DNA of 64,000 nt, taken from the NCBI GenBank assembly GCA_964484005.1, contig CAZADR010000001.1, positions 43,927-107,926 on the forward strand, given 5' to 3'. Source of the DNA: an uncultured Candidatus Saccharibacteria bacterium (GTDB lineage Bacteria; Patescibacteriota; Minisyncoccia; Phycocordibacterales; UBA9973). Made by a program: the position numbers and the translations under genes. Below are positions 4,123-47,012 of this stretch, one piece after another (position 1 is the stretch's first letter; every line of letters begins with the position of its first letter). The notes beneath the pieces were generated by a model. The model saw only the letters and a program-made list of their open reading frames with translations. It had not been told where the DNA came from and did not search any database.

Positions 4123-4125
4123 ATT

Positions 4126-21295: not shown

Positions 21296-21297
21296 CA

Positions 21298-26642: not shown

Positions 26643-26687
26643 ACATTTTTATTATACAATTAAAGTTGATAATCTCAAAAATAGTTT

Positions 26688-27245: not shown

Positions 27246-27262
27246 ATCAGCTCTTTTATTTT

Positions 27263-27451: not shown

Positions 27452-27623
27452 TTGGGTCTTTTTTTGACCCCGTTTGTTTATTGCGACAAATAAAAAACGG
27501 ATTGTCCCGTAGCAGAATCCGTAGCAAGAGGTTTTGGATCTCTATCTCAAGAGATCGCCAATGTATTGAGTTACTCAGATTATAGCACTTCTTATAATAC
27601 CGGCAAATATGTTATCCACACTA

Positions 27624-30041: not shown

Positions 30042-30201
30042 AATAAGCTGTATCTTAACATTTTGGGCTTAAAAAATATACTGAAATTGGGTTTCTGGCA
30101 AAATCTCAAAAAATTGCAATAAGACAAGAGTAATTATATAATTATTGGATAACTTAATAAGAAAGACCTAAACCCTGTGGATGGCCTTAAAACTATAGGA
30201 T

Positions 30202-30316
30202 ATGGTCGCAAAGTCGGATCACGCATAAAGAACCCATCGCAGGGTTGCGTGATCCGCCATATCGGGAAACCGGTATGAGAGGTTTCGGCCTCTACCTGTG
30301 GTGGGCTTTTTGTTTT
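30202..30316 (+). ncRNA. Candidate structured RNA element A (unknown family), ending in a U-tract 12 nt before the ATG at 30328
   Basis: Nested hairpins ggatcacgc/gcgtgatcc and aaccc/gggtt, a GAAA-tetraloop hairpin cgg-gaaa-ccg, and agagg/cctct, followed by gggctttttgtttt. It is homologous to element B at 37884-37999, with compensatory substitutions in each stem. Confidence 0.35.
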
Positions 30317-30327
30317 AGTAAAATTAT

Positions 30328-31344
30328 ATGAAAAAATTCTGGCAAATATCGAAAATAGCAATAGCAAGTATAGCAATATTTTCATTTCTCGTTCTTGTAT
30401 TTTTAGTTATTATTGTTTGGGATGATACTGACACAGAAACATCACAAAATGCGGATTTTTTAGCTAAACAACAAGAAGCACTTAATAAAGCAATAGATGA
30501 GATCGAAACAAAATCAAATCTAGAAACAGATGAATTAAAGAAAGAGATTGAAAATTTAAAAAGTAAAACCACCAAACAAACTCAAAACCAACAACAAGCT
30601 AATAATAACATTGCTGAATTAAAGAATGAGTTAAAATCCACTGATGCTTTAGTTAATGAAAATTATGACGAACAATCTGATGTTGTCTTAGATTCCATTG
30701 CTAAAGTTGCTTGTTTTTTAACTAAAAATAAGACCATTTTTGGTTCGGGTTCAGTATGGGGCGTAGGTGATGATTATTATTTAGTTACCAATAAACACGT
30801 TTTAGAAGAAGCAGATAGAGAAGATGAAAGTTGCGCTATATCGATTGCTAGAGATTGGAATGCAGTGGCTAATGATGTTGAAAAGGCCTATCAAGATGAT
30901 AACTTACTTATATATAGTTTAGACCTGAATTATACCTATTGGGAGATAGATGGGTTTGATTTTGCAATCACTAAAATAATTGAAGATAAGCAACCACTCT
31001 CTTTTCTCGATGATATTGCGATGGAAACAAATGAGACTGAGTGTAATGAGAATTTAGGGGTTGGAGAAAAAATAAAAATTATAGGATTTCCTTATACTAG
31101 TTCTGTTGCTCTACCCACTATTACAGAAGGAATTATTTCAAGTTTTGAGTATATTGGTGATAGTAGTTACTATATAACATCTGCAAAAATTGAACACGGA
31201 AATTCTGGCGGAATGGCGGTAACTAATAACTATCATTGTCTGATAGGTATACCCTCTGCTGTTGTTGTCGGTGATTCAGAGAGTTTAGGAAGGATTCTTG
31301 TTTTAACAGAGAAAGATTTAAAAACTCTTTTTGATCAGATTTAG
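30328..31344 (+). CDS. Membrane-anchored trypsin-like (S1 family) serine protease with an N-terminal transmembrane helix and coiled-coil
   Basis: LVTNKHV (His), a conserved Asp, and the GNSGG (HGNSGGMAV) Ser motif. Confidence 0.65.
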   Translation: MKKFWQISKIAIASIAIFSFLVLVFLVIIVWDDTDTETSQNADFLAKQQEALNKAIDEIETKSNLETDELKKEIENLKSKTTKQTQNQQQANNNIAELKNELKSTDALVNENYDEQSDVVLDSIAKVACFLTKNKTIFGSGSVWGVGDDYYLVTNKHVLEEADREDESCAISIARDWNAVANDVEKAYQDDNLLIYSLDLNYTYWEIDGFDFAITKIIEDKQPLSFLDDIAMETNETECNENLGVGEKIKIIGFPYTSSVALPTITEGIISSFEYIGDSSYYITSAKIEHGNSGGMAVTNNYHCLIGIPSAVVVGDSESLGRILVLTEKDLKTLFDQI

Positions 31345-31354
31345 TAGATAATTT

Positions 31355-31849
31355 ATGGAAAAAGAAAAACCTAGATCATTTAGATTAAGTCGAGAAACAA
31401 TGTTTGATAATACCATTTATGGAGATATGTCTAAAAAAGATTGGTGGAAGTTTAAAAAGGTAAGTTACAAAGTAAATTATAGAAATCTTGCTTTATTATT
31501 TATCTTTTTCTTATTTCTAATACCAACGTTATTCCCTGTTGGTAGCATTGCTCTCATTATTTGGATTATTTTATGGATAAAACATAAACTATCTCAACCA
31601 AGAGAGGTTGTTATTGCTTCAAAAACGCTTACTCCGGAAGATATTAAAAAATTTCTTGGAAATGGAGCAGATAACCTAACCAACGAAGAAGCCCAAAAAC
31701 TTTTTATGGAATTACCTGTAGAAAAACAAATGGAAGCTGTTTTTAGCAATTCTCCAAAGGAGTTAAAAAGAGAAAGAAACGTAAAAATAATTGTGAGCAT
31801 TATTGTTCTAGTTGGCCTAGCGGTATTGCCTTTTTTATTACTAAATTAA
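31355..31849 (+). CDS. Hypothetical membrane protein
   Basis: ORF with transmembrane helices. Confidence 0.4.
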   Translation: MEKEKPRSFRLSRETMFDNTIYGDMSKKDWWKFKKVSYKVNYRNLALLFIFFLFLIPTLFPVGSIALIIWIILWIKHKLSQPREVVIASKTLTPEDIKKFLGNGADNLTNEEAQKLFMELPVEKQMEAVFSNSPKELKRERNVKIIVSIIVLVGLAVLPFLLLN

Positions 31850-31894
31850 GCAGATAATAATTTATGAAAAAATTAAAAGTTAATAAAAAACAAA

Positions 31895-32188
31895 ATGAAT
31901 AATAGCTGGGGTGTTGGACTTCTGATTGGTGGAATTATTGGAATATCTATAGGCGCAACTTTTGGGCCTTCTAAAAAAGACTATGAACGAGCAAAAGGGC
32001 AATGTTATATCGTCCGAGATGATTATAGTTCTGCTCTTGAAGATGCCACTTCAAGTATTGAGGAAGCAAATAGCCAAATAGCTGATGGGCAAGGTTATGC
32101 TTGGTCTTCTTATAATGAAATGGGAGAGGCTTTAGAGAATTTATACGAAGTTGATGATGCTGACAATCCCGGAACTACTTGTTATTAG
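31895..32188 (+). CDS. Hypothetical small protein with an N-terminal transmembrane helix
   Basis: ORF only. Confidence 0.35.
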   Translation: MNNSWGVGLLIGGIIGISIGATFGPSKKDYERAKGQCYIVRDDYSSALEDATSSIEEANSQIADGQGYAWSSYNEMGEALENLYEVDDADNPGTTCY

Positions 32189-32357
32189 AAATTAGCTAAT
32201 GCAATGAAATACTACTTTAAAAAATTTCTATACTTTACCATAATGATCGCATTTTTCTATATGACTTTTTATATTCTCGGTGGATGGGCGTTATTTTTTT
32301 GGGTGCCTTTTATATTTTATCAATTAGAGTAATTAAGTATCTAGTTCTAAAAATTAT

Positions 32358-32711
32358 ATGGAAAACAATGATAAAAAAATGTGGGGTCTTGAATCAGATA
32401 CATATGATAAATTGGCAAGTAGTCATTCTAGGGCAAATATATTTTTATGGATTGTTGGGGGCTTAATATACAATTTTTTTAATGGCGATTTAATAAGTTT
32501 GTCATCTGTCTTAGTTGTTTTCCCCGGCATATTTATTGCTTCTTTTGCTTCAATTCCAACCTTCTGGGTTAATGTTAAAAAAATGCAGATACTCCAAAAA
32601 ACAAATAATATACTAGTGCTAATAGGATTCACTATTTGGTATGCGGTTGATCTTATTTTTCCAATTCTAATGAGTATTCTATTTATCAAGTTTATTAGTT
32701 TGTTTAATTAA
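32358..32711 (+). CDS. Hypothetical membrane protein
   Basis: ORF with multiple transmembrane segments. Confidence 0.35.
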   Translation: MENNDKKMWGLESDTYDKLASSHSRANIFLWIVGGLIYNFFNGDLISLSSVLVVFPGIFIASFASIPTFWVNVKKMQILQKTNNILVLIGFTIWYAVDLIFPILMSILFIKFISLFN

Positions 32712-33101
32712 ATTTTATAGAAGATTATATGGAAAAATTAAAACAATACAAATATATAATTTTAATAGTATTGCTAACTTTTGGGTTTGTTTTTTATTGG
32801 TATGAATGGAGACCACACGGAATATAACAAATCACGCAAGAAGAAGTAATTATTATTTAATGTTATAATATAACTATGAAAAACAAAACCCCAACAACAC
32901 GAGAATTAGTAGATAATACATATATTGATTCTGCGTTGCGTGGACTTAAACGTCTTTTAGATGACGACTTTAGGGATGGTAAAATTAGTGAAACTGAATA
33001 TAAAAAACGATCAGATAAATTTACAGAAGCTATAAACGCCCCAGAATAACCCTAGAAATAGGTTTTTTTGATGGGCTAGAATCTGTTGGAATTAAATATA
33101 A

Positions 33102-33653
33102 TTACTTCACCCATTTCTTCCCAGTTAATTTTTCCAGAAGCATCTCTCTCAACTGTTGATCAGAATATCCAGCAAACTTATTAATATGATGTTTGTCCGG
33201 AGAGTATAGACCCTTTAACTTATAAGCCATATCTAGTCCATCTATTATCGCCCTATTATTATCGACAGAATAGAAAGCTATTTTACCTTTTGCTGATTCT
33301 TGTATTACAACGACTTTTAATCTAGCATCCTCTAAACATTCTTTTATTTCTTTGTCTTTCATTTTTTTAGGAAAGCTAAAGTGTTTTATTTCTTTTGCTT
33401 CTAAAAGTTCTAAATGTTTATTCACTAAAAACTCATCATCTATAAAAGATTTCATTAAAACATCCCAGCTTTTAGTTTGTCTTAACTGTTGAGGATTGTC
33501 TGCATAGTTTTGAGAATATCCGGCTTCTTTAATTGAAGCTCCCAATGTCTTACCTTTTCCAAGATTTTCCAAGATTTTTCTATGTCGCTCTAATGGCTTT
33601 TTTTCTCTATTTACTTTTTTATTCATCACTTCTTTATTAAAATTACTTACCAA
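33102..33653 (-). CDS. HTH protein resembling a phage terminase small subunit (Terminase_2-like)
   Basis: ILENLGKGKTLGASIKEAGYSQNYADNPQQL resembles the ...AGYS...A... HTH of small terminase subunits. It sits immediately downstream of recombinase 2. Confidence 0.4.
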   Translation of the reverse strand: MVSNFNKEVMNKKVNREKKPLERHRKILENLGKGKTLGASIKEAGYSQNYADNPQQLRQTKSWDVLMKSFIDDEFLVNKHLELLEAKEIKHFSFPKKMKDKEIKECLEDARLKVVVIQESAKGKIAFYSVDNNRAIIDGLDMAYKLKGLYSPDKHHINKFAGYSDQQLREMLLEKLTGKKWVK

Positions 33654-33680
33654 ACTTTATTAAAATGATTCTCTGATAGT

Positions 33681-35345
33681 TTAATACGCTAAAAGTGACT
33701 TTATTTCAGCCAATGCTATACTAGGAAAAGGATATTCTTCGAGCCAATTTATAGTTCGAAAGTCGTCCACAATACCGAGCAATGTTTTGTATTTATAGTC
33801 AAAATCAGACTTTTGTATTGGAGATACAAGGCTTTTTTGTAGTTCGTAGACTTCATTTAGCTTAGGAATCCATTCAAGCAGATATTTGCATGCTAAATTG
33901 TAATTTGGCTTTATTTCATTTACGTTTTGTGCGAAGTTCGTAAATAATTGAGCAAACAATAACCTCTTTTCATCTGTAAGTGCTTGCTCGTAAATTTCTT
34001 TAGCCTTGAAAGCTAATTCGTGGATTATTAAACGCAACTCTTGGTAATCATCGCTTTGGCTAACAACTTTTTCAAGCGTAGATTCAAGGGCATCTTCTTC
34101 AGTTTTACATTCAGCAATCTTTCTTTCGCAATATTCAAGTGGTACTTCTTTGTTTATTGTTGCCTCAAAATATTTATCTTTCTGTTTTCTTATGCTTGTG
34201 AGTAGCCCATTCAGTCTTTGAATTTCAGTTTCCCTTAACTTCACATTCTCAGCATTTTCTTCCAAGATAATTCCTTCAATCCATTTTAGTACCGCTTCAT
34301 TCTTAGGGGCTATTTTAAAGAATACGGGGTCTACCTGCTTTTCTACTTCTTCCTCCTTGATATAGGTCTTTTTGGTGCAATGACGAGATTTTAAGTGGTT
34401 ATTACAATGTCCATAAAGAATACCTTTTTGTGTTTCCCAGCTCAATACTCCGCCACAACCATCACAAAAGATTTTTCCTTGAAATAAATAATTGTGCTTG
34501 GTGGTAATAACATTTTTACCTCTTCTTTTAAGAACACTTTGTGCTTTCTCAAATAAGTCTTTGGTAATTAAAGGCTTGTGTTTTGCTGGGTATATTTCAC
34601 CTTTCCATTTCATTTTGCCATAGTAGAATGGGTCTTGAAGTAATTCATAGATTCTACTTTGTAAAACTTTATTTCCATTTGTTGAACGAAGCCCCGTTTT
34701 ATACATTTCATCCTCAAGACTTTGTATAGAATAGTTTCCCGTAGCATATAGCTCAAACATTTTTCTAATATGCGGAGCAACCCCATCATCAATCACATGT
34801 ATTTTGTGTCCTTTGTCCCCAATAGTTTTATATCCAGTTGGTGGTTTGGTTGGCAACCATCCTTGTGCTATTTTTTCTTTCTGCCCCTTTTTCACTTCTT
34901 CGGAAAGGTTAGCTATATATTTCTTTGCAAGAACAATCTCAATATCCCAACGAAATTTTTCGTCCGATTTGGCATACTTGTGTATTACAAGGTTCTGCTT
35001 AACAAAGTGAAGCTGTCTTTCTTCATTAGCCTCAATCCAATCATTTGCTACGACTGCTTCCTTGAGGTTTCTGGTGAGTCGGTCAACTTTTTCACACAAA
35101 AGAATTTGAATATTATTTTTTCCCATATAGCCCATCATTTCAGCAAAGATTTTTCTTTGTTTTGTTCCACTTGCAGATTCTGCAACAGAAAAAGGTTTTG
35201 CCACTTCAAAACCTTTTCTATTTGCATATTCAATTAGTAATTTTTCTTGCGAGGGAAGCGAGTACCCCGTATCCTCTTGTTCTTTTGATGATACACGGCA
35301 ATAAATAACGGCTTTATTCTTTGTGTTTTTTATTTGAGTTTTCAT
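33681..35345 (-). CDS. Large serine recombinase (integrase), copy 2, full length
   Basis: VIYCRVSSKEQEDTGYSLPSQ...DRLTRN, roughly 60-70% identical to copy 1 over the catalytic domain. An internal site at 33777-33795 repeats the copy-1/tRNA junction sequence. Confidence 0.85.
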   Translation of the reverse strand: MKTQIKNTKNKAVIYCRVSSKEQEDTGYSLPSQEKLLIEYANRKGFEVAKPFSVAESASGTKQRKIFAEMMGYMGKNNIQILLCEKVDRLTRNLKEAVVANDWIEANEERQLHFVKQNLVIHKYAKSDEKFRWDIEIVLAKKYIANLSEEVKKGQKEKIAQGWLPTKPPTGYKTIGDKGHKIHVIDDGVAPHIRKMFELYATGNYSIQSLEDEMYKTGLRSTNGNKVLQSRIYELLQDPFYYGKMKWKGEIYPAKHKPLITKDLFEKAQSVLKRRGKNVITTKHNYLFQGKIFCDGCGGVLSWETQKGILYGHCNNHLKSRHCTKKTYIKEEEVEKQVDPVFFKIAPKNEAVLKWIEGIILEENAENVKLRETEIQRLNGLLTSIRKQKDKYFEATINKEVPLEYCERKIAECKTEEDALESTLEKVVSQSDDYQELRLIIHELAFKAKEIYEQALTDEKRLLFAQLFTNFAQNVNEIKPNYNLACKYLLEWIPKLNEVYELQKSLVSPIQKSDFDYKYKTLLGIVDDFRTINWLEEYPFPSIALAEIKSLLAY

Positions 35346-35521
35346 TTAGTTAGATTCTTGCCTACAAAGTTTTTAAAGGTTTTCTTGTCTATTCTGTATT
35401 CCTTGCCAAATTTATATGCTTTAAGTTTCCTTGCCCTTATATATCGGTAAATAGTTATTATATTTAGCTTCAGTATTTCCGCTAATTCTTCGGCTGTATA
35501 GAATTGCTCTTTTTTTCTCAT
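35342..35521 (-). CDS. Excisionase-family HTH protein (59 aa) overlapping the start of recombinase 2 by 4 nt (ATGA); not in the supplied ORF track
   Basis: Minus-strand translation MRKKEQFYTAEELAEILKLNIITIYRYIRARKLKAYKFGKEYRIDKKTFKNFVGKNLTK shows the Xis/MerR-like HTH_17 pattern (TxxEAAExLGVSxxTIYRxIxxGKLPAxRxGRxxRI). Confidence 0.5.
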   Translation of the reverse strand: MRKKEQFYTAEELAEILKLNIITIYRYIRARKLKAYKFGKEYRIDKKTFKNFVGKNLTK

Positions 35522-35580
35522 GTTCCAATTTTATCATACTGGACTTTTCTATACAACCAAAGTTATCCACATTTACCTTA

Positions 35581-35763
35581 TCACGCAGGCAAAGTATTTT
35601 TCTCCTCCTTCTTAAGGCGTTGATAGATACCAAACAGAGTTAAATAATAATTAGCCACTCCATTGGCAATTTCAGCCACTTCCTGTTCAGAATAATTCTC
35701 AAAATCAACATGGTCTTTGTGAATCTCCTTGAATTTATTTATTTGTTCCTGTCGCAGTTCCAT
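35581..35763 (-). CDS. Small hypothetical protein (60 aa)
   Basis: ORF only. Confidence 0.25.
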   Translation of the reverse strand: MELRQEQINKFKEIHKDHVDFENYSEQEVAEIANGVANYYLTLFGIYQRLKKEEKNTLPA

Positions 35764-35961
35764 GTTTAGTTTCTAATTTACTTTTGACGCCCCATTGGGG
35801 GAAACTGACCAGATAGTTTTATCTTTACATCACCACATAATATTATTTGGCTGAACAAGGGGATATATTCTCTGTCCAGAATATAAAATCTTTACAGGTT
35901 CATCTGTCCGAAGGATAGATGAATAATATCAATTATTATATGTGTATATTATTTGTGTATA

Positions 35962-36207
35962 CTATCTGGTATTGGTTGGCTGTTCTTCACTTAACGAGTT
36001 AATGGTTTCAACAAAGTCTTTGTCATTCTCTACAACGCTGAAAGCTTTTTCAGTAACGGTGTACCATTTTGTTTTGTCATATCCGTGTTTATTGAACCTT
36101 CCAGTGTCTATGTATGATTTCTTTTTGAGATTGTCTAAAATTCGTCTAATTGTTGCTATTGTCCAAAAAGAATATTGCTCTTTAAACTTAAGTACAGAAT
36201 TAAACAT
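35962..36207 (-). CDS. Small winged-HTH-like hypothetical protein (possibly RepA_N/DnaD-like)
   Basis: SFWTIATIRRILDNLKKKSYIDTGRFNKHGYDKTKWYTV. Weak resemblance only. Confidence 0.3.
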   Translation of the reverse strand: MFNSVLKFKEQYSFWTIATIRRILDNLKKKSYIDTGRFNKHGYDKTKWYTVTEKAFSVVENDKDFVETINSLSEEQPTNTR

Positions 36208-36478
36208 CCAATATTTACCTTGATAATAGTGATATTCACTCTTTTTTCTTTTGTTGAGATTAACCTAAAAATATATGTTGCTGAACATAATGGCTTCCTC
36301 AACGCCAACATCTTTTGCCACACTTTCACTAAAATAATATTTTTTTATATCATTGTTTTCCATATGTAATTAATGCTTTATGATGTAAACTATGCTTTTC
36401 TTTTTTCGTTTCTACATACACATCATTTAAGCTCATTTTTATTGCTTATAATAAAGAGGAGCTTCAAAAACAGGTACG

Positions 36479-36694
36479 CTACAACATGTCTTTTGTTAGG
36501 TCGTACAAATATTTTAATATTTGCCCCTTTTCGTCTTTTGCATACTCTTCCTTATCAACTAATTTGTTAAAATATCTTCTAATTCTATCTCTACTGAACT
36601 TTTTTCCACGTACTGTGTTGGCAAAACAAGTAAATGACGACCAGAAAGGGTTTTTCCTCTGAATATATTCAAATCTTCTTTTTATACTTCTCAT
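36479..36694 (-). CDS. Small basic hypothetical protein
   Basis: ORF only. Confidence 0.25.
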   Translation of the reverse strand: MRSIKRRFEYIQRKNPFWSSFTCFANTVRGKKFSRDRIRRYFNKLVDKEEYAKDEKGQILKYLYDLTKDML

Positions 36695-36843
36695 TATTTT
36701 ATTAGTTATTAATATTTCTCTTAACTAGACTGGGAAATCAGTCCAAGCAGTAGTTTTTGTTACGACATAATAAAATCACCACTTCTATGATTATAGAAAG
36801 TGGTATATATACAATTTACAATATTGTAAAAATAGGATGTGGA

Positions 36844-37578
36844 TTAATGCACATTAAACCTCCAACTTGAGCTTTTATAACTTCCATCAAGTTCTTCTCT
36901 CATAAAAACTTTATCAGAGTAAAGAGGCTTTTTTAGTTCTTTGTTTAAATCGGATATATATTGACGAAGCGTTTTCTCTCTTTGCTTTGATTGCATTCCT
37001 AATATATCGTAAATCTCTTCCTCTCCCACTGTTTCGTATTCTGCTTCAATGAAAATTTTACATAATTTCTTTAATCTTTTTGGTAAGGTAATGATTTCAT
37101 CATGAATTCTTATCGTATCATCATTATAAAGCTCCAAATCCCCAACACTTTTTTCCCTCATAGGTATTCGTAAAGATAAATCAATGCCACTCTTATATAA
37201 GATTTCATCTGTCTGTTTTAATGTTAAAACACTTTTAAAAGACTGTTTGTATTTTCTTAATTTCTTTAAATTTACATTTATATAGGTAATAACAAAATCA
37301 TCAGTTTCAATACGGCTTCCGTCTTCATTATATATTGACCCCTTAGAATAATCGGACATGGCTGGAATAGGTGTTCTTGAAGTCATTTTTAAGATTTTTT
37401 GTTCTTCTAAATTCAATAAAAATGAAATGCATTCTGAACTCGGTAATTTGAATTCCCAAGTCATTAATTCATAGCCCCCTCTAGGATTATTTTTTCTACT
37501 TTCTTTTGGATAAAGAAGAACTTGCTCCTCAATAAAAGATAAAATTCTTAAACACTCTACGAATTTCTTCTGCTCCAT
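36844..37578 (-). CDS. Hypothetical protein (244 aa), element cargo
   Basis: ORF only. No motif recognised. Confidence 0.4.
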   Translation of the reverse strand: MEQKKFVECLRILSFIEEQVLLYPKESRKNNPRGGYELMTWEFKLPSSECISFLLNLEEQKILKMTSRTPIPAMSDYSKGSIYNEDGSRIETDDFVITYINVNLKKLRKYKQSFKSVLTLKQTDEILYKSGIDLSLRIPMREKSVGDLELYNDDTIRIHDEIITLPKRLKKLCKIFIEAEYETVGEEEIYDILGMQSKQREKTLRQYISDLNKELKKPLYSDKVFMREELDGSYKSSSWRFNVH

Positions 37579-37883
37579 TTCTAGATTGTATTACAAAAAG
37601 TTCTAAAATCCCACCATTTTTCAGATGAGTATATTCGGTGTATCCTCTTTCATTTGGGTGTCCTCCCCCCGTACCCCTTATCAAATAAGAATATTACTAA
37701 TAGTAAATATTAAAATATAGATGTCGTAATGTAAGCTGTATTTGCTTATAGAAAGGCTATAACAACCTCTTTAATGGTCTATAAACACGCTATAAACCCT
37801 TATTGATGGTAAATTTATAGAAAGGTGCTATTATTGTTTTATAACTTAATATAAGAGTAGCCTAAACTTTTGTAGACAAAAGC

Positions 37884-37999
37884 ATGGTGAACGAAGTCAG
37901 GTAATGCATAAAAAACCCTTCATGGGGTCGCATTACCTGCCGTACAGGGAAACTTGTATGAGAGACTTAGGTCTCTACCCGTGAGGGGCTTTTTGTTTG
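37884..37999 (+). ncRNA. Candidate structured RNA element B, homolog of element A
   Basis: Same architecture as A with covarying stems: aggtaatgc/gcattacct, cagg-gaaa-cttg, agagac/gtctct, then gggctttttgtttg. Confidence 0.35.
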
Positions 38000-38040
38000 C
38001 CAATTACGGAAATTATTAATGATAAACAAAATACAAATAT

Positions 38041-38232
38041 ATGGAAAAGGAAACTTTTGGTCAATTCTTGGGTCGTAACTGGTGGCTGTTGCTTATTAGT
38101 TTTATTCACATGCTGAGGAATGGTGAAGATTTTACAGGAGGCGAGAAATTATTACTTTTTATCATTACTGGTGGAATAATAATATTTCTAATGTTTCTTT
38201 ATTGGTCTTATCAAAATAAGAAAAATAATTAA
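38041..38232 (+). CDS. Small membrane protein
   Basis: ORF with 2 transmembrane helices. Confidence 0.3.
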   Translation: MEKETFGQFLGRNWWLLLISFIHMLRNGEDFTGGEKLLLFIITGGIIIFLMFLYWSYQNKKNN

Positions 38233-38237
38233 TAATT

Positions 38238-38666
38238 ATGAAAAGAACACAAAGTATATTTTTAATTTTAATTGGAGTTGCTGTTTTAATTTTTACAATC
38301 TTTTATATCTCAAAAGAAGATACGAAAGATTTATTGGCAAAACAAGAGAGTTGCGTTAAGGCTTACGAAAAAATGAGTGCTGAAGCTCCAAAATCAAGTT
38401 TAGACAACGAAGGAATGATGACTGTTTCAAACCATGCCTTGTATAGTCAAACACAAAAAAGCTGTGTTGAAACTTTATATGTAAGCACTCTTTCTTTTAA
38501 AGACAAAAAACCTGAAGCAAAAGGTTATTTTTCAATAAAAGATATTTATACGGGAGAAGTTTATTTCGTTAAATTATTTACAAATGATACTGAAAGTAAA
38601 GATGTGGAAGCTTGGTATAAGTCAAAACTGAACGAATTAAAAACGTTTGGTAGTGATGAAAAATAA
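38238..38666 (+). CDS. Small secreted / lipoprotein-like hypothetical protein
   Basis: Signal peptide. ORF only. Confidence 0.4.
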   Translation: MKRTQSIFLILIGVAVLIFTIFYISKEDTKDLLAKQESCVKAYEKMSAEAPKSSLDNEGMMTVSNHALYSQTQKSCVETLYVSTLSFKDKKPEAKGYFSIKDIYTGEVYFVKLFTNDTESKDVEAWYKSKLNELKTFGSDEK

Positions 38667-38706
38667 GAAACTTATTAGATTTATATTATTAGTTAAAAAA
38701 ATAATT

Positions 38707-39066
38707 ATGAATAAATATATATTAAGCATGTTTGTATTAGTCGGTTTATTGGTTAGCGTAAACAACATCTACGCAAAAACTGTGCCTAGTAATCAAGTAA
38801 ATGCAATTGTAAAGATATTAAAAACTCTAGGTATAGAAAGTGGAAAAATAAGCGAGATAAAAAAGATATTGGAGGACGACAACATTACTACCCCCGTTAA
38901 AAACTACAGTCCAAACACAGGAAAAGAAATTATTCCTGAACCCAAAATAGAGGCTACTGGTTGTGAAAATAACTACAAGTTTAATATAAAAACTGGTCAA
39001 CCATGTTCAAGTTATAAAGCACCAACACCTCAGAAATGTTCTGGTTGGTGTCCCGCAAGTGCATAA
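38707..39066 (+). CDS. Small secreted Cys-containing hypothetical protein
   Basis: Signal peptide MNKYILSMFVLVGLLVSVNNIYA. C-terminal Cys pairs. Confidence 0.4.
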   Translation: MNKYILSMFVLVGLLVSVNNIYAKTVPSNQVNAIVKILKTLGIESGKISEIKKILEDDNITTPVKNYSPNTGKEIIPEPKIEATGCENNYKFNIKTGQPCSSYKAPTPQKCSGWCPASA

Positions 39067-39131
39067 ATAAAGATTGATTTTCCTAGTAAAAGTTGTAATA
39101 TCAAAATATTAGTAATAATCTCTAATATTAC

Positions 39132-39626
39132 ATGGAAAATACACCAAAGGATGACTGGTTTAAAAAGGCAATAGCTATAGCAATTCTACTCATAGGAGCC
39201 TCTGTGTTTTATTATTTTATTATTTTTCTTCCCTCAGAAAAAAGGGCTGAAAAAGATAAAGAAGCACAAAAAGAACAAGCTCTTGAAGCAAAAATAGCAG
39301 AAGAAAATTTAAAAGAAGAAGAGAGAAAACAAAATCTCCAAATATGTTTAGAAGAAAGCGAATACCAAACAACCTCTTCTCATTTATGGCTTTGTTCAAG
39401 CATAGGGAGAACTGAAAAATCTTGTGGGGAAGTTTTTGCTTCATCAAAAAATGTTTTTGATTCCTTAGCAAACTATAGGAGAATTTTCGGGGTTGAAAAA
39501 ACTGTTGATGACTTTGATGGGTTTTCAGAAAAATGTAATTGCGGGTTAGAAAAATACAGGAGAGATGAGTTTGCAGTAGAAAAAAAAGAAAGAGACGATA
39601 TTTGTTTTAAAACTTACGGAAATTAG
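39132..39626 (+). CDS. Membrane-anchored coiled-coil protein with a Cys-rich C-terminal domain
   Basis: Transmembrane helix, a K/E coiled-coil, and 6 Cys in the C-terminal half. Confidence 0.4.
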   Translation: MENTPKDDWFKKAIAIAILLIGASVFYYFIIFLPSEKRAEKDKEAQKEQALEAKIAEENLKEEERKQNLQICLEESEYQTTSSHLWLCSSIGRTEKSCGEVFASSKNVFDSLANYRRIFGVEKTVDDFDGFSEKCNCGLEKYRRDEFAVEKKERDDICFKTYGN

Positions 39627-39627
39627 T

Positions 39628-39858
39628 ATGAAAAAAATAAAAGAAATTTTAATAAAACTAAACGATTGGAAGTTTATTATTCTGATAATATTTATCCTTG
39701 GTAGTGCTTTTTATTGGTATGAGTTGAGACCAATACAAGAAAAAAAGGATTGTTTTGAAATGGCGAAAGAGTACGTTGTGGAAACAAAGGATTCTGGTAA
39801 TATAGAAGCCAGATTTAATAATGTTTTTGATTTATGTTTAAAGAAGAAAGGGTTATAG
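39628..39858 (+). CDS. Small membrane protein
   Basis: ORF with one transmembrane helix. Confidence 0.3.
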   Translation: MKKIKEILIKLNDWKFIILIIFILGSAFYWYELRPIQEKKDCFEMAKEYVVETKDSGNIEARFNNVFDLCLKKKGL

Positions 39859-39866
39859 TAAAATAT

Positions 39867-40220
39867 ATGAAAAAGATAATCCTCACGTTAATAATCCTAG
39901 CTCTAACTATCCCTGTTATTTCTTTTGCTCATTCTGGTAGGACTGATTCTTCGGGCTGTCATACTTGCCGTACAAATTGCCCTAATTGGGGTCTAGATTA
40001 TGGAGAATATCATTGTCATAGGTCAAAAGGCGTTGCTCAGCCTCTAGAGCCAGTTAGAAGCATTAGAAATGAAGGTGGTGTGGGACAAACTGTTCCAGCC
40101 CCTGAATATAAAATTCCAGCCAATACTGTAAATACGCCAGCAATAAATACAACTCCAACGCCCTCAACCCAAACAGAAAAAAAGAGCTGGATTGTAAGAT
40201 TTTTTAGCTGGTTGTTTTAA
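39867..40220 (+). CDS. Small secreted His/Cys-rich protein
   Basis: Signal peptide. HSGRTDSSGCHTCRTNCPNWGLDYGEYHCH is a metal-binding-like motif. Confidence 0.4.
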   Translation: MKKIILTLIILALTIPVISFAHSGRTDSSGCHTCRTNCPNWGLDYGEYHCHRSKGVAQPLEPVRSIRNEGGVGQTVPAPEYKIPANTVNTPAINTTPTPSTQTEKKSWIVRFFSWLF

Positions 40221-40230
40221 GTAAAATTTT

Positions 40231-40638
40231 ATGAAAAAAATTTTAAAATATTTTGGATTCATTATTTTGGTTCTTATTGGATTGTTTTTATTTGTTGCTA
40301 ATTTTTCTTCTATCAAATCAAATTTTCAATGCTCTGGTAAAATAACCTATCAAGAGACAACAGAATCAAAAACTATTTATATTATATTAGAAGAATATAG
40401 ATGGTGGGTAGGTCTTTGGGGTGATTCAGATGGTAATATGAAACTAGAAATTCCTAATGAGGATTTTGATTATTTTGATTCCATATTAGAAAATGGTAAT
40501 CTGCTTTCTATCTTTAAAACTTCTTATAATCCAAACCCAGAAAAAAAACTAGTTGGAAATTTTTCAACACTAAGTAAAACGTTAGATTTAGATACATCCT
40601 TTGGTGTTTTTAGTGGTTCTTGTAATATTATTAATTAG
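40231..40638 (+). CDS. Small secreted / membrane-anchored hypothetical protein
   Basis: N-terminal transmembrane helix or signal peptide. Confidence 0.4.
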   Translation: MKKILKYFGFIILVLIGLFLFVANFSSIKSNFQCSGKITYQETTESKTIYIILEEYRWWVGLWGDSDGNMKLEIPNEDFDYFDSILENGNLLSIFKTSYNPNPEKKLVGNFSTLSKTLDLDTSFGVFSGSCNIIN

Positions 40639-40646
40639 ATAAATTT

Positions 40647-40895
40647 ATGAAAAATAAAAAATTAATTATTATAATTCTGATTCTTTTAGTAGTAGGCGGA
40701 ACATTTTTTTATCTGACCAAGACATGCAATCCGCCATTTATTAAAGGGAATATTAATAGTGAGGGTGAAAAAATTTATCACATACCAAGCGGACAATTCT
40801 ATGACAAAACCATAATAGATAGAAGTGCGGGCGAAAGGTGTTTTATCTCAGAAAAAAGAGCTATCTATTCTGGCTGGAGGGCTTCATCAAAATAG
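40647..40895 (+). CDS. Small secreted hypothetical protein
   Basis: N-terminal transmembrane helix or signal peptide. Confidence 0.35.
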   Translation: MKNKKLIIIILILLVVGGTFFYLTKTCNPPFIKGNINSEGEKIYHIPSGQFYDKTIIDRSAGERCFISEKRAIYSGWRASSK

Positions 40896-40942
40896 AGATA
40901 ATTATATTTAACATACATAGGACAATGTGATAAAGTTCGTAG

Positions 40943-42502
40943 ATGCCACCGAATAAAGACCAAAAGGTAAAACTAACTTTTTCAGACTATTTTAATATCC
41001 CAAAAGAAACTTTAAAACAAGAGGGCTATTTTGATATTTCCCTCGCATCAGATTTACCAGTTTTTATTGACCCTTTTCACCTTTTTTATAGCAAAAAATT
41101 GGCTTATAAAAAACTTCACGAAGATATAATTAAATATCTAATTTTTCTCAAAGAAACTTCAAAAAATAATGGAAATAAACTATCAAACGGAATGATTGAG
41201 GAATACTATAGTTTTCATGAAGTAGAACAGACATGGTTAGGTTTTAGTGTTAAAGACAATAAGGGGCATGGGCTAGGAAAAAAGTTTGCTAAAGCACTTA
41301 ACGCAAATTTTAATGCCATGTTTGATGATTTTGGTGTTGGCATTAGTTCCCATCATCTTGAAAAGCTTACTCTTGTTTCAGATAATGTTGGCAAGGATAC
41401 TATCAGTGATTTTACTACGAATTTAATTTTAGGATACCTTGCTAAAGAAACAGAAAAATTTACCTTAAAACATATTGAAGAAAAACAAAGACAAAAATTT
41501 GCAGTTGAAAAAGCCGAATTTGACTACGAAGATAAAACTTGGACATCAAAAGTATTTACTTTACCAATATTCAATCAAGATTTTGTTTTGTTAACACCAA
41601 TAGATTTATTAACTAAAGATGAAACATGGATAAATAAAAATGAACTGCTTGATAAGTTTTCAGAAATCCCTTACTCTATTTCTAACCAAGCCCTAAGAGA
41701 AAAACTTTCTAGGTATTTTCAATCAAGAATTATTACTAATTCACCAAGCAAGATAGATAAAAAAACTGGCAAGGAGGTTATAAACATAACTCAAAAATCA
41801 AAGAGAATTTCAGCAAAAGAAACCATAACAGAATTCCCAGAGGCTATAGATTACTATATTAAAAAGAAAGAAGAAAATGGAGAACAAGCAATTAAGGGTG
41901 GGCTTGAAAAAGTTGCAGAAACCCGACAATTTGTTGAAGAGCAGTTTAGAGATTTTGCCACACTAGTTGAAAGCCATGGTGGTTTAAGCACAAAAAGACC
42001 CTCTTCTTTTGAAGAATCTCTAAAAGCAAGTCTTTACTTTAAGGAATGTGTTGAACTGCACGATGGATATAAAAATTTATATTACAAAGATTCTGTTTCG
42101 GGTCTAATTCCTCATGATGAACCCTCAATACAAAGATTGTATTGGTTTGTTTGGAACGGAAATTCAAGTGATTTAAACAAAGAAGTTTCAAATGGCTTGG
42201 GAACTGTTGACTACACAGCCTCTAATGGCAAAAAGGATAAAACACTTATTGAATTTAAGCTTGCTAGTAGTGGCTCTCTGAAAGATAATTTAAAAAATCA
42301 GCTAGAAAAGTATAAAGAAGTAAACAAAACAAAAAAAGGAATATGGATAATAATATTTTTTACTGCTGACGAAGAATTTAAATTAAAAACAATTCTTAGG
42401 GAACTTGAAATGGATAAAGTGGAAGGTATTATTCTTGTGGACGCAAGGTTAGATAACAAAATTACTGCGTCAAAAATCAAATCTTTAAAATCCAATGAGT
42501 AA
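40943..42502 (+). CDS. Hypothetical 519-aa protein, first gene of a two-gene operon with an Mrr-cat-like nuclease
   Basis: No recognised domain. The C-terminal segment GTVDYTASNGKKDKTLIEFKLA could be a PD-(D/E)xK-like motif. It overlaps the next gene by 8 nt. Confidence 0.45.
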   Translation: MPPNKDQKVKLTFSDYFNIPKETLKQEGYFDISLASDLPVFIDPFHLFYSKKLAYKKLHEDIIKYLIFLKETSKNNGNKLSNGMIEEYYSFHEVEQTWLGFSVKDNKGHGLGKKFAKALNANFNAMFDDFGVGISSHHLEKLTLVSDNVGKDTISDFTTNLILGYLAKETEKFTLKHIEEKQRQKFAVEKAEFDYEDKTWTSKVFTLPIFNQDFVLLTPIDLLTKDETWINKNELLDKFSEIPYSISNQALREKLSRYFQSRIITNSPSKIDKKTGKEVINITQKSKRISAKETITEFPEAIDYYIKKKEENGEQAIKGGLEKVAETRQFVEEQFRDFATLVESHGGLSTKRPSSFEESLKASLYFKECVELHDGYKNLYYKDSVSGLIPHDEPSIQRLYWFVWNGNSSDLNKEVSNGLGTVDYTASNGKKDKTLIEFKLASSGSLKDNLKNQLEKYKEVNKTKKGIWIIIFFTADEEFKLKTILRELEMDKVEGIILVDARLDNKITASKIKSLKSNE

Positions 42503-43337
42503 AAAAACAAAAGAAGAAGAGGTAGATGAAATAAAACAAAAAAGTGGGCATGGGCTTCATCTTAAAGTTGCCAACTATCTTGAATCTAAGGGTTGGGAAG
42601 TTGTTATTGGTCAATATTATATTGATATTGCAACTGGTTTATCTCGTGATTTAGATATACTTGCGACAAAGTATTTTCCAATAGCTGATAGCGGTACAAA
42701 CCTAAGAATTCGCTTTTTTATTGAATGCAAATATGTAGAAAATATAAATGTTGTTTGGTTCACACCAAAAGATTTAAAAAAGTCGCAGGCTCTTATTGCG
42801 GATACTGGTTTAATGAGAGGAAGTGAAGAACATGAAATGCGTATTGCAAATCCAGCAAGTTATATGCCTCTTTATCATCATTATATGGAAAATTCTCCTG
42901 TGGCTAAATTAACTGATAAAAAAGGTCAACAAGACATATTCTATCAAGGTGTTAATAGCTCTGTTCATGGAATGATTGCATTAAGAAACACTAACTACGA
43001 AAGGTTCAGTTTTGATTATCCAGTAATAGTTTTTGATTCTTTTGAGAAAATATTCCGTGCGACTGAAGACAATAAAAATATAGAAATTACTGAAAATTTT
43101 CAACGAGCCATTGATTACTCATATAAGCAAGAAGACCAGCTCAAAAGTAAGTATTTTATAATTGACATTGTGTCTTTTGAGTTAATAGACTCATTTTTAG
43201 AAAACATAGAAAAAGCGGATGTAGAGATTATGAAAAGTAAGGCATTCTCTCAGATTAAGGAAGAAAGATTTCAAGAAAGAATGCATAATATAAATAGGTA
43301 TTCTAATGATGACCCCTTTAATGATTACGGTATTTAA
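42495..43337 (+). CDS. Restriction-endonuclease-fold (Mrr catalytic-domain-like PD-(D/E)xK) protein
   Basis: GHGLHLKVANYLESKGWEV ... RDLDILA ... FIECKY matches the Mrr_cat pattern (G.G..E..L...G..V ... D.DI.A ... (Q/E)CK). Confidence 0.5.
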   Translation: MSKKTKEEEVDEIKQKSGHGLHLKVANYLESKGWEVVIGQYYIDIATGLSRDLDILATKYFPIADSGTNLRIRFFIECKYVENINVVWFTPKDLKKSQALIADTGLMRGSEEHEMRIANPASYMPLYHHYMENSPVAKLTDKKGQQDIFYQGVNSSVHGMIALRNTNYERFSFDYPVIVFDSFEKIFRATEDNKNIEITENFQRAIDYSYKQEDQLKSKYFIIDIVSFELIDSFLENIEKADVEIMKSKAFSQIKEERFQERMHNINRYSNDDPFNDYGI

Positions 43338-43436
43338 CTTTTTGTGGATTAAGTAATATATTATTAATGGGTGTGGGGTAATACTATTTAACAATAGAAA
43401 GTAATTTGTGTATTTGTTGTAAAGAAACAGAGGGGA

Positions 43437-45930: not shown

Positions 45931-46317
45931 ATGAAAAAAGTAATCTTTATCTTTTTTATTGCGTTTATTTTAAATTTAATTTGGGAAAATTTACATTCAG
46001 TTTTGTATGTTAATTATAAAGGAGGAGAAATAACTCAGTTTATACTTCTTCGCGCCACTCTATCCGATGCTATTTATATTGTCTTTATGGTTTTTCCTTT
46101 TATTGTTTTTCCAACTCTAAAAAATAAAGATTGGTTGGTAGTTATTTTGGGATTTATTATTTCCATCAGCATAGAATATTATGCACTTTCTACTGGAAGA
46201 TGGGCTTATAATTCTATGATGCCGATCATTCCATTTCTGGGGGTGGGCCTGACACCGACTATCCAACTCGGTATTCTCGGGTATATTTCGATTAGATTGG
46301 AAGAAAAATTCTCCTAA
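45931..46317 (+). CDS. Hypothetical polytopic membrane protein
   Basis: ORF with 3-4 transmembrane helices. Confidence 0.4.
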   Translation: MKKVIFIFFIAFILNLIWENLHSVLYVNYKGGEITQFILLRATLSDAIYIVFMVFPFIVFPTLKNKDWLVVILGFIISISIEYYALSTGRWAYNSMMPIIPFLGVGLTPTIQLGILGYISIRLEEKFS

Positions 46318-46349
46318 CGAGGACGGTTCTCACTACTTTTATCCATAAA

Positions 46350-46380
46350 AAAAGAGGCATTCTTTCGAATGCCTCTTTTG
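46350..46380. terminator. Bidirectional terminator
   Basis: aaagaggcattc-tttc-gaatgcctcttt. Confidence 0.5.
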
Positions 46381-46400
46381 CCGTAGGATACCGCTACAGT

Positions 46401-47012
46401 TCAGTAAGAGCCGAATCCCGGACGAGACGGGCTCTTGTAGAGGACGCCGTGGTCGCCGGTGCCGGAGTCGTTGTAGACTTCCAGCAATACGACGAACTCA
46501 CCCCAGATGGCGGGACCGATGACGACGCCGTCGGCACCGACCCAGTTGCCGCTGATCAGAGTTGCGTCGGCCGGGGCTGCGACGATCTTGACGAAGTAGT
46601 TCCACTTCGCCGTCTTGCCGTCGGTATCTTCGTACTCGCCTTTCGTGTGGTTCGTGAGCCAGGCGCCGGAGCCGATGTACGAAGGATAACCGTAATGCCG
46701 GTCTAGCTTGTTGTCGCTGTCACAGTCCTTGTTGGACAGCCACGCGCTATTCCACTTCATCACCAGGTTGTCGTTCGCGTATGCTTGGCACCAGGCGGCG
46801 TTGCGATAGGCGTCACAGTAAGTGCCGTTGAACATCATGGCCTGGTAGTTGTATCCCCACTGGTCGTAACCAGTGGTGATGACGTTACCGGCGCCGTCGA
46901 GGATGATGTCATCCTGGATGGTGGCACATGTCTGTGCCGACGCCGTGGTCGCAGTGTTGAACACCAACAACACGAATAACGATAAGACAAAGAACTTCAA
47001 GAACTTTTTCAT
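46401..47012 (-). CDS. Secreted protein of unknown function encoded by a strongly GC-rich gene (about 60% GC) with an AT-rich signal-peptide segment; uses a TGA stop
   Basis: Signal peptide MKKFLKFFVLSLFVLLVFNTATTASA. The mature part is rich in G/Y/W/N/D. No family recognised. Composition is sharply different from the host. Confidence 0.55.
   Translation of the reverse strand: MKKFLKFFVLSLFVLLVFNTATTASAQTCATIQDDIILDGAGNVITTGYDQWGYNYQAMMFNGTYCDAYRNAAWCQAYANDNLVMKWNSAWLSNKDCDSDNKLDRHYGYPSYIGSGAWLTNHTKGEYEDTDGKTAKWNYFVKIVAAPADATLISGNWVGADGVVIGPAIWGEFVVLLEVYNDSGTGDHGVLYKSPSRPGFGSY

What the first reader, a model, noticed from the sequence alone, without database searches (positions are those of the whole stretch)
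40943..43337. Two-gene operon: unknown 519-aa protein coupled to an Mrr-cat-like PD-(D/E)xK nuclease, a candidate defence module
Gene 2 (280 aa) has the Mrr catalytic-domain pattern GHGLHLKVANYLESKGWEV ... RDLDILA ... IECKY. It overlaps gene 1 (519 aa, no recognisable domain) by 8 nt. The C-terminus of gene 1 may carry a PD-(D/E)xK-like VDY...IEFK motif. The pair sits at the end of an accessory array of small secreted proteins next to the mobile island. This is typical defence-island placement. The sensor or partner protein is uncharacterised.
Basis: partly seen in the sequence, partly recalled or inferred. Interest (0 to 1): 0.55.

Follow-up and report, generated by a model that had tools for sequence, protein, structure and literature searches.

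The report
Two stacked solo nuclease genes
The two overlapping genes are real and both look like DNA-cutting enzymes, but they are two unrelated stand-alone genes of uncharacterised, widespread families that ended up side by side at the cargo end of a mobile element, not a conserved sensor-plus-nuclease system.

Summary

The pair is not conserved. No gene 2 relative occurs in 85 gene 1 loci, and no gene 1 relative occurs in 82 gene 2 loci. An element with an 83%-identical gene 1 carries a Schlafen/AlbA_2 gene in the downstream slot, with homology ending at gene 1's stop. Neighbours of both families are highly variable and include many R-M, integrase and other defence genes. The pair lies inside a serine-recombinase integrative element, not beside it. 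The most likely reading is two independent single-gene defence or exclusion nucleases. Function is untested.

The parts
40943..42502 (+). Gene 1, 519 aa: DUF8370 (N-terminal ~350-400 aa, unknown fold) fused to DUF8371 (C-terminal PD-(D/E)xK nuclease). A solo-gene family found in many phyla.
   Evidence: ORF. Precomputed PF28123 and PF28130. AF2 model pLDDT 83.5, pTM 0.80. At least 491 genome loci.
40943..42004 (+). DUF8370 region (res 1-354): mostly helical with one long beta-hairpin (183-210). It has a dense set of invariant polar residues (D37, D43, H59, E93, N106, H138, E140, K141, D152, S155, D156) and a Gly-rich loop (res 97-112). Proposed sensor or regulatory domain.
42005..42499 (+). 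DUF8371 region (res ~355-519): PD-(D/E)xK nuclease domain. Catalytic candidates are E393, D423 (nt 42209-42211), E437 (42251-42253), K439 (42257-42259) and Q453.
42495..43337 (+). Gene 2, 280 aa: member of an unannotated (no Pfam) family of ~260-aa proteins. It has an N-terminal Hjc/XisH-like PD-(D/E)xK core and a C-terminal ~150-aa conserved region of unknown function.
   Evidence: ORF. 1344 representatives at E<=1e-3, matched full-length. No Pfam for any of 120 relatives. Weak XisH and UPF0102 hits.
42546..42764 (+). Gene 2 nuclease core (res ~18-90): helix with H22, then strands carrying D44, D52-x-D54 (family consensus E-x-D) and E77-C-K79, followed by W88.
42495..42502 (+). 8-nt overlap (ATGAGTAA) between gene 1's stop and gene 2's start. 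It is a junction artefact: gene 1 reads past the end of shared homology into the neighbouring cassette, giving a C-terminal tail (...SLKSNE) that the L005 relative lacks.
   Evidence: Sequence comparison of window 42440-42560 with L005 5270-5390. blastn homology ends at 42491.
33681..35345 (-). Large serine recombinase of the integrative element ('element B') that carries the pair.
   Evidence: Resolvase + Recombinase + Zn_ribbon_recom. The same architecture flanks the 76%-identical gene 1 relative P0008.
37859..37976 (+). LOOT RNA (RF03000) at the head of the plus-strand cargo array that ends with genes 1 and 2.
   Evidence: 76.4 bits vs gathering 46.4. Also in element A at 30165-30293 and in L005 at 2013-2136.
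38041..40895 (+). Array of eight small ORFs with N-terminal hydrophobic segments (secreted or membrane proteins), upstream of gene 1 on the same strand.
   Evidence: Translations. No Pfam hits for the four that were scanned.

Best explanation
The locus holds two independent, single-gene PD-(D/E)xK nuclease cassettes stacked at the distal cargo end of a large-serine-recombinase integrative element in a low-GC bacterium. The host is probably from the candidate phyla radiation, an inference from the names of the closest homologues.

Gene 1 is a self-contained sensor-nuclease fusion. Its N-terminal DUF8370 region is inferred to recognise an invader-associated signal or to hold the enzyme inactive. 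Its C-terminal DUF8371 nuclease is inferred to cut DNA once released. This is the logic of Shedu-type single-protein immune nucleases.

Gene 2 is a separate small nuclease with an Hjc/XisH-like N-terminal catalytic core and an uncharacterised C-terminal region that presumably gives it specificity or regulation.

The two genes are probably co-transcribed with the upstream array, but they act separately. The 8-nt overlap is a by-product of cassette juxtaposition.

Shown: the gene models, the nuclease folds and motifs, the non-conservation of the pair, the variable neighbourhoods rich in defence and MGE genes, and the element architecture. Inferred: the defence or exclusion role, the sensor role of DUF8370, DNA as the substrate, and co-transcription.

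For: Gene 2 has a nuclease core: D54 and K79 invariant, E77 conserved in at least 90%; Hjc, XisH, VRR-NUC and Can2 fold hits; weak XisH and UPF0102 HMM hits.

The two families are independent. No gene 2 relative occurs in 85 gene 1 loci and no gene 1 relative in 82 gene 2 loci. hhalign finds no relationship between them. L005 carries an 83%-nt-identical gene 1 with homology ending at 42491, followed by a Schlafen/AlbA_2 gene. P0008, P0015 and P0095 have no coupled downstream gene.

Gene 1 has no conserved partner. 484 neighbours from 81 loci fall into 432 clusters, and the largest (10 loci, members mostly 700-1100 aa) sits at variable offsets.

Contexts are of the defence or MGE type. Across the neighbours include ResIII in 9, N6_N4_Mtase in 5, Methylase_S in 4, HsdR domains, integrases, GmrSD, SMODS, Schlafen and HerA. 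Specific examples are SEFIR protein - homologue - unknown 435 aa - HsdR in L073, a methyltransferase-helicase-GIY-YIG-homologue operon and Tn3 cargo on plasmids, and SIR2, GIY-YIG and AAA neighbours of a distant homologue. Gene 2 relatives sit next to ResIII+RE_endonuc, DEAD, AAA_15/21 and PIN genes.

The N-terminal half of gene 1 matches PADLOC PDC-M36A, one of 145 untested candidates found by 'guilt-by-embedding' in R-M/BREX/DISARM loci (10.1101/2024.01.29.577857).

Both families are rare on viral contigs: 10 loci and 1 locus in IMG/VR, none in INPHARED.

Shedu precedent for an N-terminal regulatory domain plus a C-terminal PD-(D/E)xK core: PMC10441436.
Against: No member of either family has been tested, and I found no literature on them. 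The defence enrichment is an impression from Pfam counts among +/-2 neighbours, without a computed genomic background. Many neighbours are ordinary metabolic genes.

Gene 1's N-terminal region has many invariant acidic and histidine residues, so it could be a second enzyme rather than a sensor.

The gene 2 model is poor (pLDDT 47), so its fold assignment rests on motif conservation and on consistent but weak hits.

The overlap and shared strand leave room for a lineage-specific functional link that comparative data cannot exclude. The right-hand element boundary is inferred from gene content only, because no att repeats were found.
Confidence: 0.6

Rival explanations
1. A lineage-specific functional two-gene system. 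Gene 1 senses and gene 2 acts as a second effector or regulator, translationally coupled through the 8-nt overlap.
For: Same strand, 8-nt overlap, and no terminator-like site between them. All contigs carrying this exact gene 1 also carry gene 2, but they are the same strain-level locus.
Against: Co-occurrence is zero in 85 and 82 loci of the two families. The closest related element has a different downstream gene, with the break exactly at gene 1's stop. Gene 1 already carries a complete nuclease domain. Both families are typically solo.
Confidence: 0.1
2. One or both proteins are modification-dependent (Type IV-like) restriction enzymes. Gene 1's DUF8370 would read modified bases and its nuclease would cut modified foreign DNA. 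Gene 2 would be an Mrr-like Type IV enzyme.
For: Both are solo nucleases without a cognate methyltransferase nearby. Both have PD-(D/E)xK cores. GmrSD and R-M genes are frequent neighbours of gene 1 relatives.
Against: No hit to Mrr_cat, or to any other characterised domain family, for either protein or its relatives. No PADLOC hit to any Type IV model. Gene 2's nuclease is N-terminal, the reverse of Mrr. DUF8370 resembles no solved reader domain.
Confidence: 0.15
3. Element-maintenance functions rather than immunity. Gene 2 would be an Hjc-like junction resolvase or an XisH-like excision/directionality factor working with the element's serine recombinase, and gene 1 would be an addiction or inter-element competition nuclease.
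For: Gene 2's best fold hits include Hjc resolvases and XisH, with weak XisH HMM hits in 5 of 63 members. XisH is known, from my own knowledge, to assist excision of the fdxN element by the serine recombinase XisF. Both genes sit in a serine-recombinase element.
Against: Serine recombinases lie within about 5 kb of only 2 of 85 gene 2 loci and 4 of 97 gene 1 loci. Element A and the related elements L005 and P0008 lack gene 2. Gene 2 is about twice the size of XisH or Hjc, and no XisI-like partner is evident. Neighbours are otherwise variable.
Confidence: 0.07

Closest known systems
Pfam DUF8370 (PF28123) + DUF8371 (PF28130) proteins
   Same: Gene 1 carries both domains in the precomputed annotation, as do essentially all of its 120 best homologues. 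Length (~490-520 aa) and all conserved motifs are shared.
   Different: Nothing structural. This copy has a slightly longer C-terminal tail created by the junction with gene 2. The family itself has no known function.
Shedu (SduA, DUF4263) single-protein immune nucleases
   Different: No DUF4263 or PADLOC Shedu HMM hit for gene 1 at E<=1, or for 41 relatives at E<=0.05. DUF8370 was not compared with the 79 N-terminal domain families catalogued for Shedu. Oligomeric state is unknown.
PADLOC candidate PDC-M36 (CAS_00134: FAM_01399>>FAM_00303>>FAM_00303)
   Same: Gene 1 residues 12-240 match the PDC-M36A model positions 7-226 at E=8e-18. Like the PDC candidates, gene 1 relatives are found embedded in R-M loci (10.1101/2024.01.29.577857).
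   Different: Only the N-terminal half of the 457-position model matches. The partner genes are absent, and gene 2 hits no PADLOC model. PDC-M36 is itself untested.
Mrr / Mrr_cat (PF04471) Type IV restriction endonucleases
   Same: Gene 2 has a D...ExK core preceded by a helix, and it is a solo gene without a methyltransferase. The fold class is the same PD-(D/E)xK superfamily.
   Different: No Mrr_cat HMM hit for gene 2 or for 63 relatives. The nuclease is N-terminal, followed by an unknown ~150-aa region, whereas Mrr has an N-terminal DNA-binding domain and a C-terminal nuclease (my own knowledge).
Archaeal Hjc resolvases and XisH (PF08814)
   Different: Hits are far below Pfam thresholds, the model is low confidence, gene 2 is about twice as long, and there is no association with recombinases.

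Membership tests
Conserved two-gene operon (gene 1 + gene 2) | Relatives of the two genes co-occur as neighbours in other genomes | tested here: not met
   No gene 2 relative in 85 gene 1 loci by tblastn at E<=10. No gene 1 relative in 82 gene 2 loci at E<=1e-3. The downstream gene is swapped in the closest related element.
DUF8370/DUF8371 family (gene 1) | Match to PF28123 and PF28130 | tested here: met
   Precomputed Pfam for this exact protein (P0005) and its homologues. The local Pfam copy lacks these models.
PD-(D/E)xK nuclease superfamily (gene 1 C-terminus) | Conserved acidic/lysine motif D...(D/E)xK on adjacent strands | tested here: met
   D423 and E437-F-K439 invariant in 41 sequences, plus E393 and Q453. 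They lie on strands 424-427 and 433-440 of the model.
PD-(D/E)xK nuclease superfamily (gene 1 C-terminus) | Alpha-beta-beta-beta-alpha-beta restriction-endonuclease-like fold | tested here: met
PD-(D/E)xK nuclease superfamily (gene 1 and gene 2) | Metal-dependent nuclease activity | not testable with these tools
   Requires biochemistry.
PD-(D/E)xK nuclease superfamily (gene 2 N-terminus) | Conserved D...(D/E)xK motif | tested here: met
   D54 and K79 invariant and E77 conserved in at least 90% of 63 diverse members. All are present in the window protein.
PD-(D/E)xK nuclease superfamily (gene 2 N-terminus) | Restriction-endonuclease-like fold | tested here: inconclusive
Mrr_cat / Mrr Type IV restriction enzyme (gene 2) | Match to Pfam Mrr_cat (PF04471) | tested here: not met
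   No hit at E<=1 for gene 2 and none among 63 relatives at E<=0.01.
Mrr_cat / Mrr Type IV restriction enzyme (gene 2) | N-terminal DNA-binding domain followed by a C-terminal nuclease domain | tested here: not met
   The catalytic motif lies at residues 22-79 of 280, and the unknown region is C-terminal.
Mrr_cat / Mrr Type IV restriction enzyme (gene 2) | Cleavage dependent on DNA modification | not testable with these tools
   Requires experiments.
PADLOC PDC-M36 | Full-length match to PDC-M36A | tested here: not met
   Only model positions 7-226 of 457 match (E=8e-18).
PADLOC PDC-M36 | Presence of the partner genes (FAM_00303 x2) in the cassette | tested here: not met
   Gene 2 and 63 relatives hit no PDC model. 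The upstream genes were not scanned with PADLOC.
Shedu (DUF4263) | Match to DUF4263 or the PADLOC SduA model | tested here: not met
   No hit in Pfam or PADLOC for gene 1 at E<=1, or in Pfam for 41 relatives at E<=0.05.
Shedu (DUF4263) | Single polypeptide with an N-terminal regulatory domain and a C-terminal PD-(D/E)xK core | tested here: met
   Domain layout.
Classical R-M system (Type I/II/III) | Adjacent cognate methyltransferase or specificity subunit, or homology of gene 1 to one | tested here: not met
   Gene 1 has no methyltransferase or specificity-subunit hits. The scanned flanking genes gave no Pfam hit upstream, and downstream are VIT1, a PG-binding protein and MscL.

The most novel reading that the evidence does not exclude
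DUF8370-DUF8371 is a widespread, still unrecognised single-gene anti-invader system found in at least 491 species across most bacterial phyla. Its ~350-residue N-terminal domain would be a new kind of sensor, or a second enzymatic module, controlling a restriction-like nuclease. Gene 2 would represent a second, Pfam-dark immune nuclease family. Mobile elements of candidate-phyla bacteria would stack such cassettes in a swap-able slot at the end of a LOOT-RNA-led cargo operon.
Probability: 0.4. Interest if true: 0.6.

Novelty: new member of a known kind. Interest (0 to 1): 0.38.

Why it matters
The specific claim of a new two-gene defence module does not hold, so the locus itself is a fairly ordinary example of defence-type cargo on an integrative element. 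The follow-up did pin down two large families without known function. DUF8370-DUF8371 proteins are shown here to be sensor-like domain plus PD-(D/E)xK nuclease fusions that behave as solo genes and are often embedded among R-M and other immune genes. A separate ~260-aa Hjc/XisH-like nuclease family has no Pfam model at all. Both are cheap to test, because homologues exist in culturable Bacillus, Paenibacillus and Sinorhizobium (gene 1) and in Nostoc (gene 2). If either is active, it would add one or two single-gene systems to the defence catalogue. The exact cassette swap downstream of gene 1 (Schlafen/AlbA_2 versus gene 2) also marks a cargo hotspot in serine-recombinase elements of low-GC uncultured bacteria.

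Tried and rejected
- Pfam, NCBIfam and PADLOC scans of gene 2 gave nothing.
- PDB sequence searches with single sequences and with profiles found nothing for either family.
- The first, word-indexed homology search made gene 2 look nearly orphan, with only 3 relatives. The exhaustive profile search corrected this to 1344 representatives.
- The AF2 model of gene 2, built from 4 sequences, was poor.
- Foldseek against afdb50 was unavailable.
- The BFVD search gave no significant full-length match.
- The literature search for PDC-M36, DUF8370 and DUF8371 found nothing. The supplements of the PDC paper give only the cassette composition, not family annotations.
- The att-site search between tRNA-Asn, the ~33 kb junction and the region after gene 2 found no convincing repeats.
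- Promoter and terminator scans were not above shuffled background.
- hhalign of the two families shows no relationship, so the short shared 'K.GHGL' DNA repeat (D19) is a chance match.
- I rejected the XisH-like excision-factor idea because serine recombinases are rarely nearby.
- I guessed that L073's 508-aa upstream gene was hsdM. That was wrong: it is a SEFIR-domain protein.
Full report
**Observation**

The ORF list confirms gene 1 at 40943..42502 (+, 519 aa) and gene 2 at 42495..43337 (+, 280 aa). The junction reads ...CCAATGAGTAA..., so gene 2's ATG lies 8 nt before the end of gene 1's TAA. The eight small upstream ORFs (38041-40895, +) all begin with hydrophobic signal or TM-like segments. 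Local GC is about 0.31, slightly below most of the window. Both ORFs are real genes. Gene 1 has more than 1848 database homologues. Gene 2's family has 1344 cluster representatives at E<=1e-3 and 245 at E<=1e-30.

**Gene 1**

The local Pfam copy, NCBIfam and PDB sequence searches gave nothing meaningful. The precomputed annotation of this exact protein and of essentially all its best homologues lists PF28123 (DUF8370) and PF28130 (DUF8371). A truncated relative that stops aligning after residue ~412 keeps only PF28123, so DUF8370 is the N-terminal part and DUF8371 the C-terminal part.

PADLOC gives one hit, PDC-M36A at E=8e-18, but only for residues 12-240 against model positions 7-226 of 457. 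PHROGs gives a full-length hit to phrog_30194 and an N-terminal hit to phrog_27295, both of unknown function.

An alignment of 41 homologues at 43-86% identity has these invariant residues in the C-terminal part: E393, D423, E437, K439 and Q453. The N-terminal part has a striking set of invariant polar residues: D37, D43, H59, E93, N106, H138, E140, K141, D152, S155 and D156.

Gene 1 is a fusion of an unknown ~350-residue region with its own nuclease. The N-terminal region has no structural match in the PDB. The AFDB library was not available.

**Gene 2**

The word-indexed search found only three relatives at 30-32% identity. The exhaustive profile search showed a sizeable family of proteins of about 250-290 aa, matched end to end. 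In 63 diverse members D44, D54, K79, W88, Y208 and D224 are invariant. H22, E52, E77, C78, H129, Y130 and Q155 are conserved in at least 90%. The window protein has all of them, with D at position 52.

No member hits Mrr_cat. The only recurring Pfam hints are XisH (5 of 63, best E 0.0017) and UPF0102 (1 of 63), both in the PD-(D/E)xK clan. PADLOC and PDB sequence searches are empty. None of 120 relatives has any precomputed Pfam domain. The only informative source name is one JGI 'Holliday junction resolvase-like predicted endonuclease'.

Gene 2 is best described as an Hjc/XisH-like PD-(D/E)xK nuclease core at the N-terminus, followed by a conserved ~150-residue region of unknown function. 'Mrr-cat-like' holds only at the superfamily level. 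As a family assignment it fails, and the domain order is the reverse of Mrr's.

**Is the pair a system?**

No, on four lines of evidence.

1. Gene 2 relatives sit after a DUF5685 gene, after a ResIII+RE_endonuc protein, or on their own. None of 82 loci carrying a gene 2 relative contains a gene 1 relative.
2. None of the 85 gene 1 loci (80 genome loci plus L005-L009) contains a gene 2 relative, even at E<=10.
3. L005 encodes an 86%-identical gene 1. It shares the element backbone with the window (LOOT region and HTH_17 region). Nucleotide homology runs from 40966 to 42491 at 83% and stops at the end of gene 1. The next gene there is a 395-aa Schlafen/AlbA_2 protein starting 9 nt after the stop. 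Beyond that point gene 1's reading frame in the window continues into the neighbouring cassette, giving a tail (...SLKSNE) that the L005 protein lacks. That extension is what creates the overlap.
4. The 76% relative P0008 and the more distant P0015 and P0095 have no coupled downstream gene.

Clustering 484 neighbours (+/-4 genes) from 81 loci gives 432 clusters. The largest, with members mostly 700-1100 aa, occurs in 10 loci at eight different offset/strand positions. Profile-profile comparison finds no relationship between the two families.

**Genomic setting**

The window contains two related large serine recombinases, at 25083-26642 (-) next to tRNA-Asn and at 33681-35345 (-). They share 77% identity over 300 nt. 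Each is followed by small minus-strand genes, a LOOT RNA (30165-30293 and 37859-37976, +) and a plus-strand array of small secreted proteins.

The same layout surrounds the closest gene 1 relatives: a recombinase and HTH_17 gene on one strand, small genes and then gene 1 on the other. L005 also has a LOOT RNA at the head of its plus-strand array. So genes 1 and 2 are the last cargo genes of the second element, not neighbours of it. Directly downstream are VIT1, a peptidoglycan-binding protein and MscL. I found no att-type repeats, so the right boundary is inferred from gene content.

**Contexts elsewhere**

Gene 1 relatives occur in at least 491 loci of the species-representative genome set. 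They span Bacillota, Acidobacteriota, Pseudomonadota, Actinomycetota, Bacteroidota, Verrucomicrobiota, Nitrospirota and several candidate phyla, at a steady 40-45% identity.

Their +/-2 neighbours hit more than 110 different Pfam families on each side. The most frequent are ResIII, N6_N4_Mtase, Methylase_S, HsdR domains, N6_Mtase, integrases, IrrE/HTH pairs, GmrSD, SMODS, Schlafen and HerA.

Specific examples:
- SEFIR-domain protein, homologue, unknown 435-aa protein, then HsdR in L073.
- A methyltransferase, DEAD helicase, GIY-YIG and homologue operon on a Paenarthrobacter plasmid.
- Tn3 cargo on S. meliloti pSmeSM11a.
- A distant homologue beside a SIR2 protein.

This fits the origin of the PADLOC PDC models: 145 untested candidates picked because they are embedded in R-M/BREX/DISARM loci (10.1101/2024.01.29.577857). 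PDC-M36 is a three-gene cassette, and the window lacks its other members.

Gene 2 relatives have equally variable neighbours, including DEAD, ResIII, RE_endonuc, AAA_15/21, PIN and integrase genes. Both families are rare on viral contigs and absent from the phage collection. Gene 1 relatives are on 17 plasmids and gene 2 relatives on none.

**Mechanism**

The best-supported reading is two independent single-protein nucleases stacked in a cargo slot.

For gene 1 the closest working analogy is Shedu. There a variable N-terminal domain keeps a C-terminal PD-(D/E)xK core inactive until an infection-related signal is sensed (PMC10441436). Membership fails, because there is no DUF4263 or SduA HMM hit, so this is an analogy only. 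A Type IV-like, modification-reading role for DUF8370 is a live alternative. Its many invariant acidic and histidine residues also allow a second enzymatic activity.

For gene 2 I tested the Hjc/XisH resemblance as an element-excision hypothesis and found it unlikely. Serine recombinases lie near only 2 of 85 gene 2 loci and 4 of 97 gene 1 loci.

**Verdict**

The sequence observation is largely right. The interpretation as a coupled sensor-nuclease module is not. The locus is a new instance of known, though functionally uncharacterised, families in a typical mobile-element cargo position. The families themselves are reasonable candidates for single-gene defence systems and are easy to test. 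That is where the remaining interest lies.

Noticed in passing
window 30165-30293 (+), 37859-37976 (+); L005 2013-2136 (+): LOOT RNA (RF03000, 73-76 bits vs gathering 46.4) sits in the divergent intergenic region between the recombinase/HTH module and the plus-strand cargo array. This holds in all three serine-recombinase elements examined. A terminator-like hairpin lies at its 3' end (37969-37991). It looks like a conserved leader or regulatory RNA of this element type.
   Followed up: partly
window 25023-33100 and 33100-43400: Two related integrative elements appear to lie in tandem next to tRNA-Asn. Their large serine recombinases (25083-26642 and 33681-35345, both minus strand) share 77% identity over 300 nt, and their LOOT regions share 75% over 105 nt. 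Their cargo differs. No att repeats were found.
   Followed up: partly
window 27624-30041 (-): An 805-aa ORF in the first element has no Pfam hit at E<=0.01. It is the largest unannotated gene in the island.
   Followed up: no
window 46001-47000; ORF 46401-47012 (-): A local GC spike (0.49 against ~0.33 elsewhere) coincides with a 203-aa secreted-looking protein that has no Pfam hit. It may be a recent acquisition.
   Followed up: no
L073 4424-11977: A gene 1 relative is sandwiched between a SEFIR-domain protein (PDB 5y8e-like, E=2.5e-28) and an unknown 435-aa gene followed by a Type I HsdR (E~4e-31). All are tightly packed on one strand.
   Followed up: partly
L176 (Rhodobacter sp. CZR27 plasmid NZ_CP023549.1) 3659-5035: A distant gene 1 homologue (458 aa, 25% identity over residues 142-512) lies downstream of a large SIR2-family protein, near GIY-YIG and AAA ATPase genes. 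At about the length of the PDC-M36A model, it may represent that candidate system.
   Followed up: no
L175 (Bradyrhizobium plasmids) 3962-4678: A 238-aa annotated protein corresponds only to the C-terminal half of gene 1 (residues ~277-511, 35% identity). It occurs on several Bradyrhizobium plasmids and is either a stand-alone nuclease module or a remnant.
   Followed up: no
window 21290-21713 (-): A bacterial class A RNase P RNA (116.8 bits) is present, with tRNA-Thr, tRNA-Ala and tRNA-Asn genes elsewhere in the window. The window is chromosomal host DNA with inserted elements.
   Followed up: no
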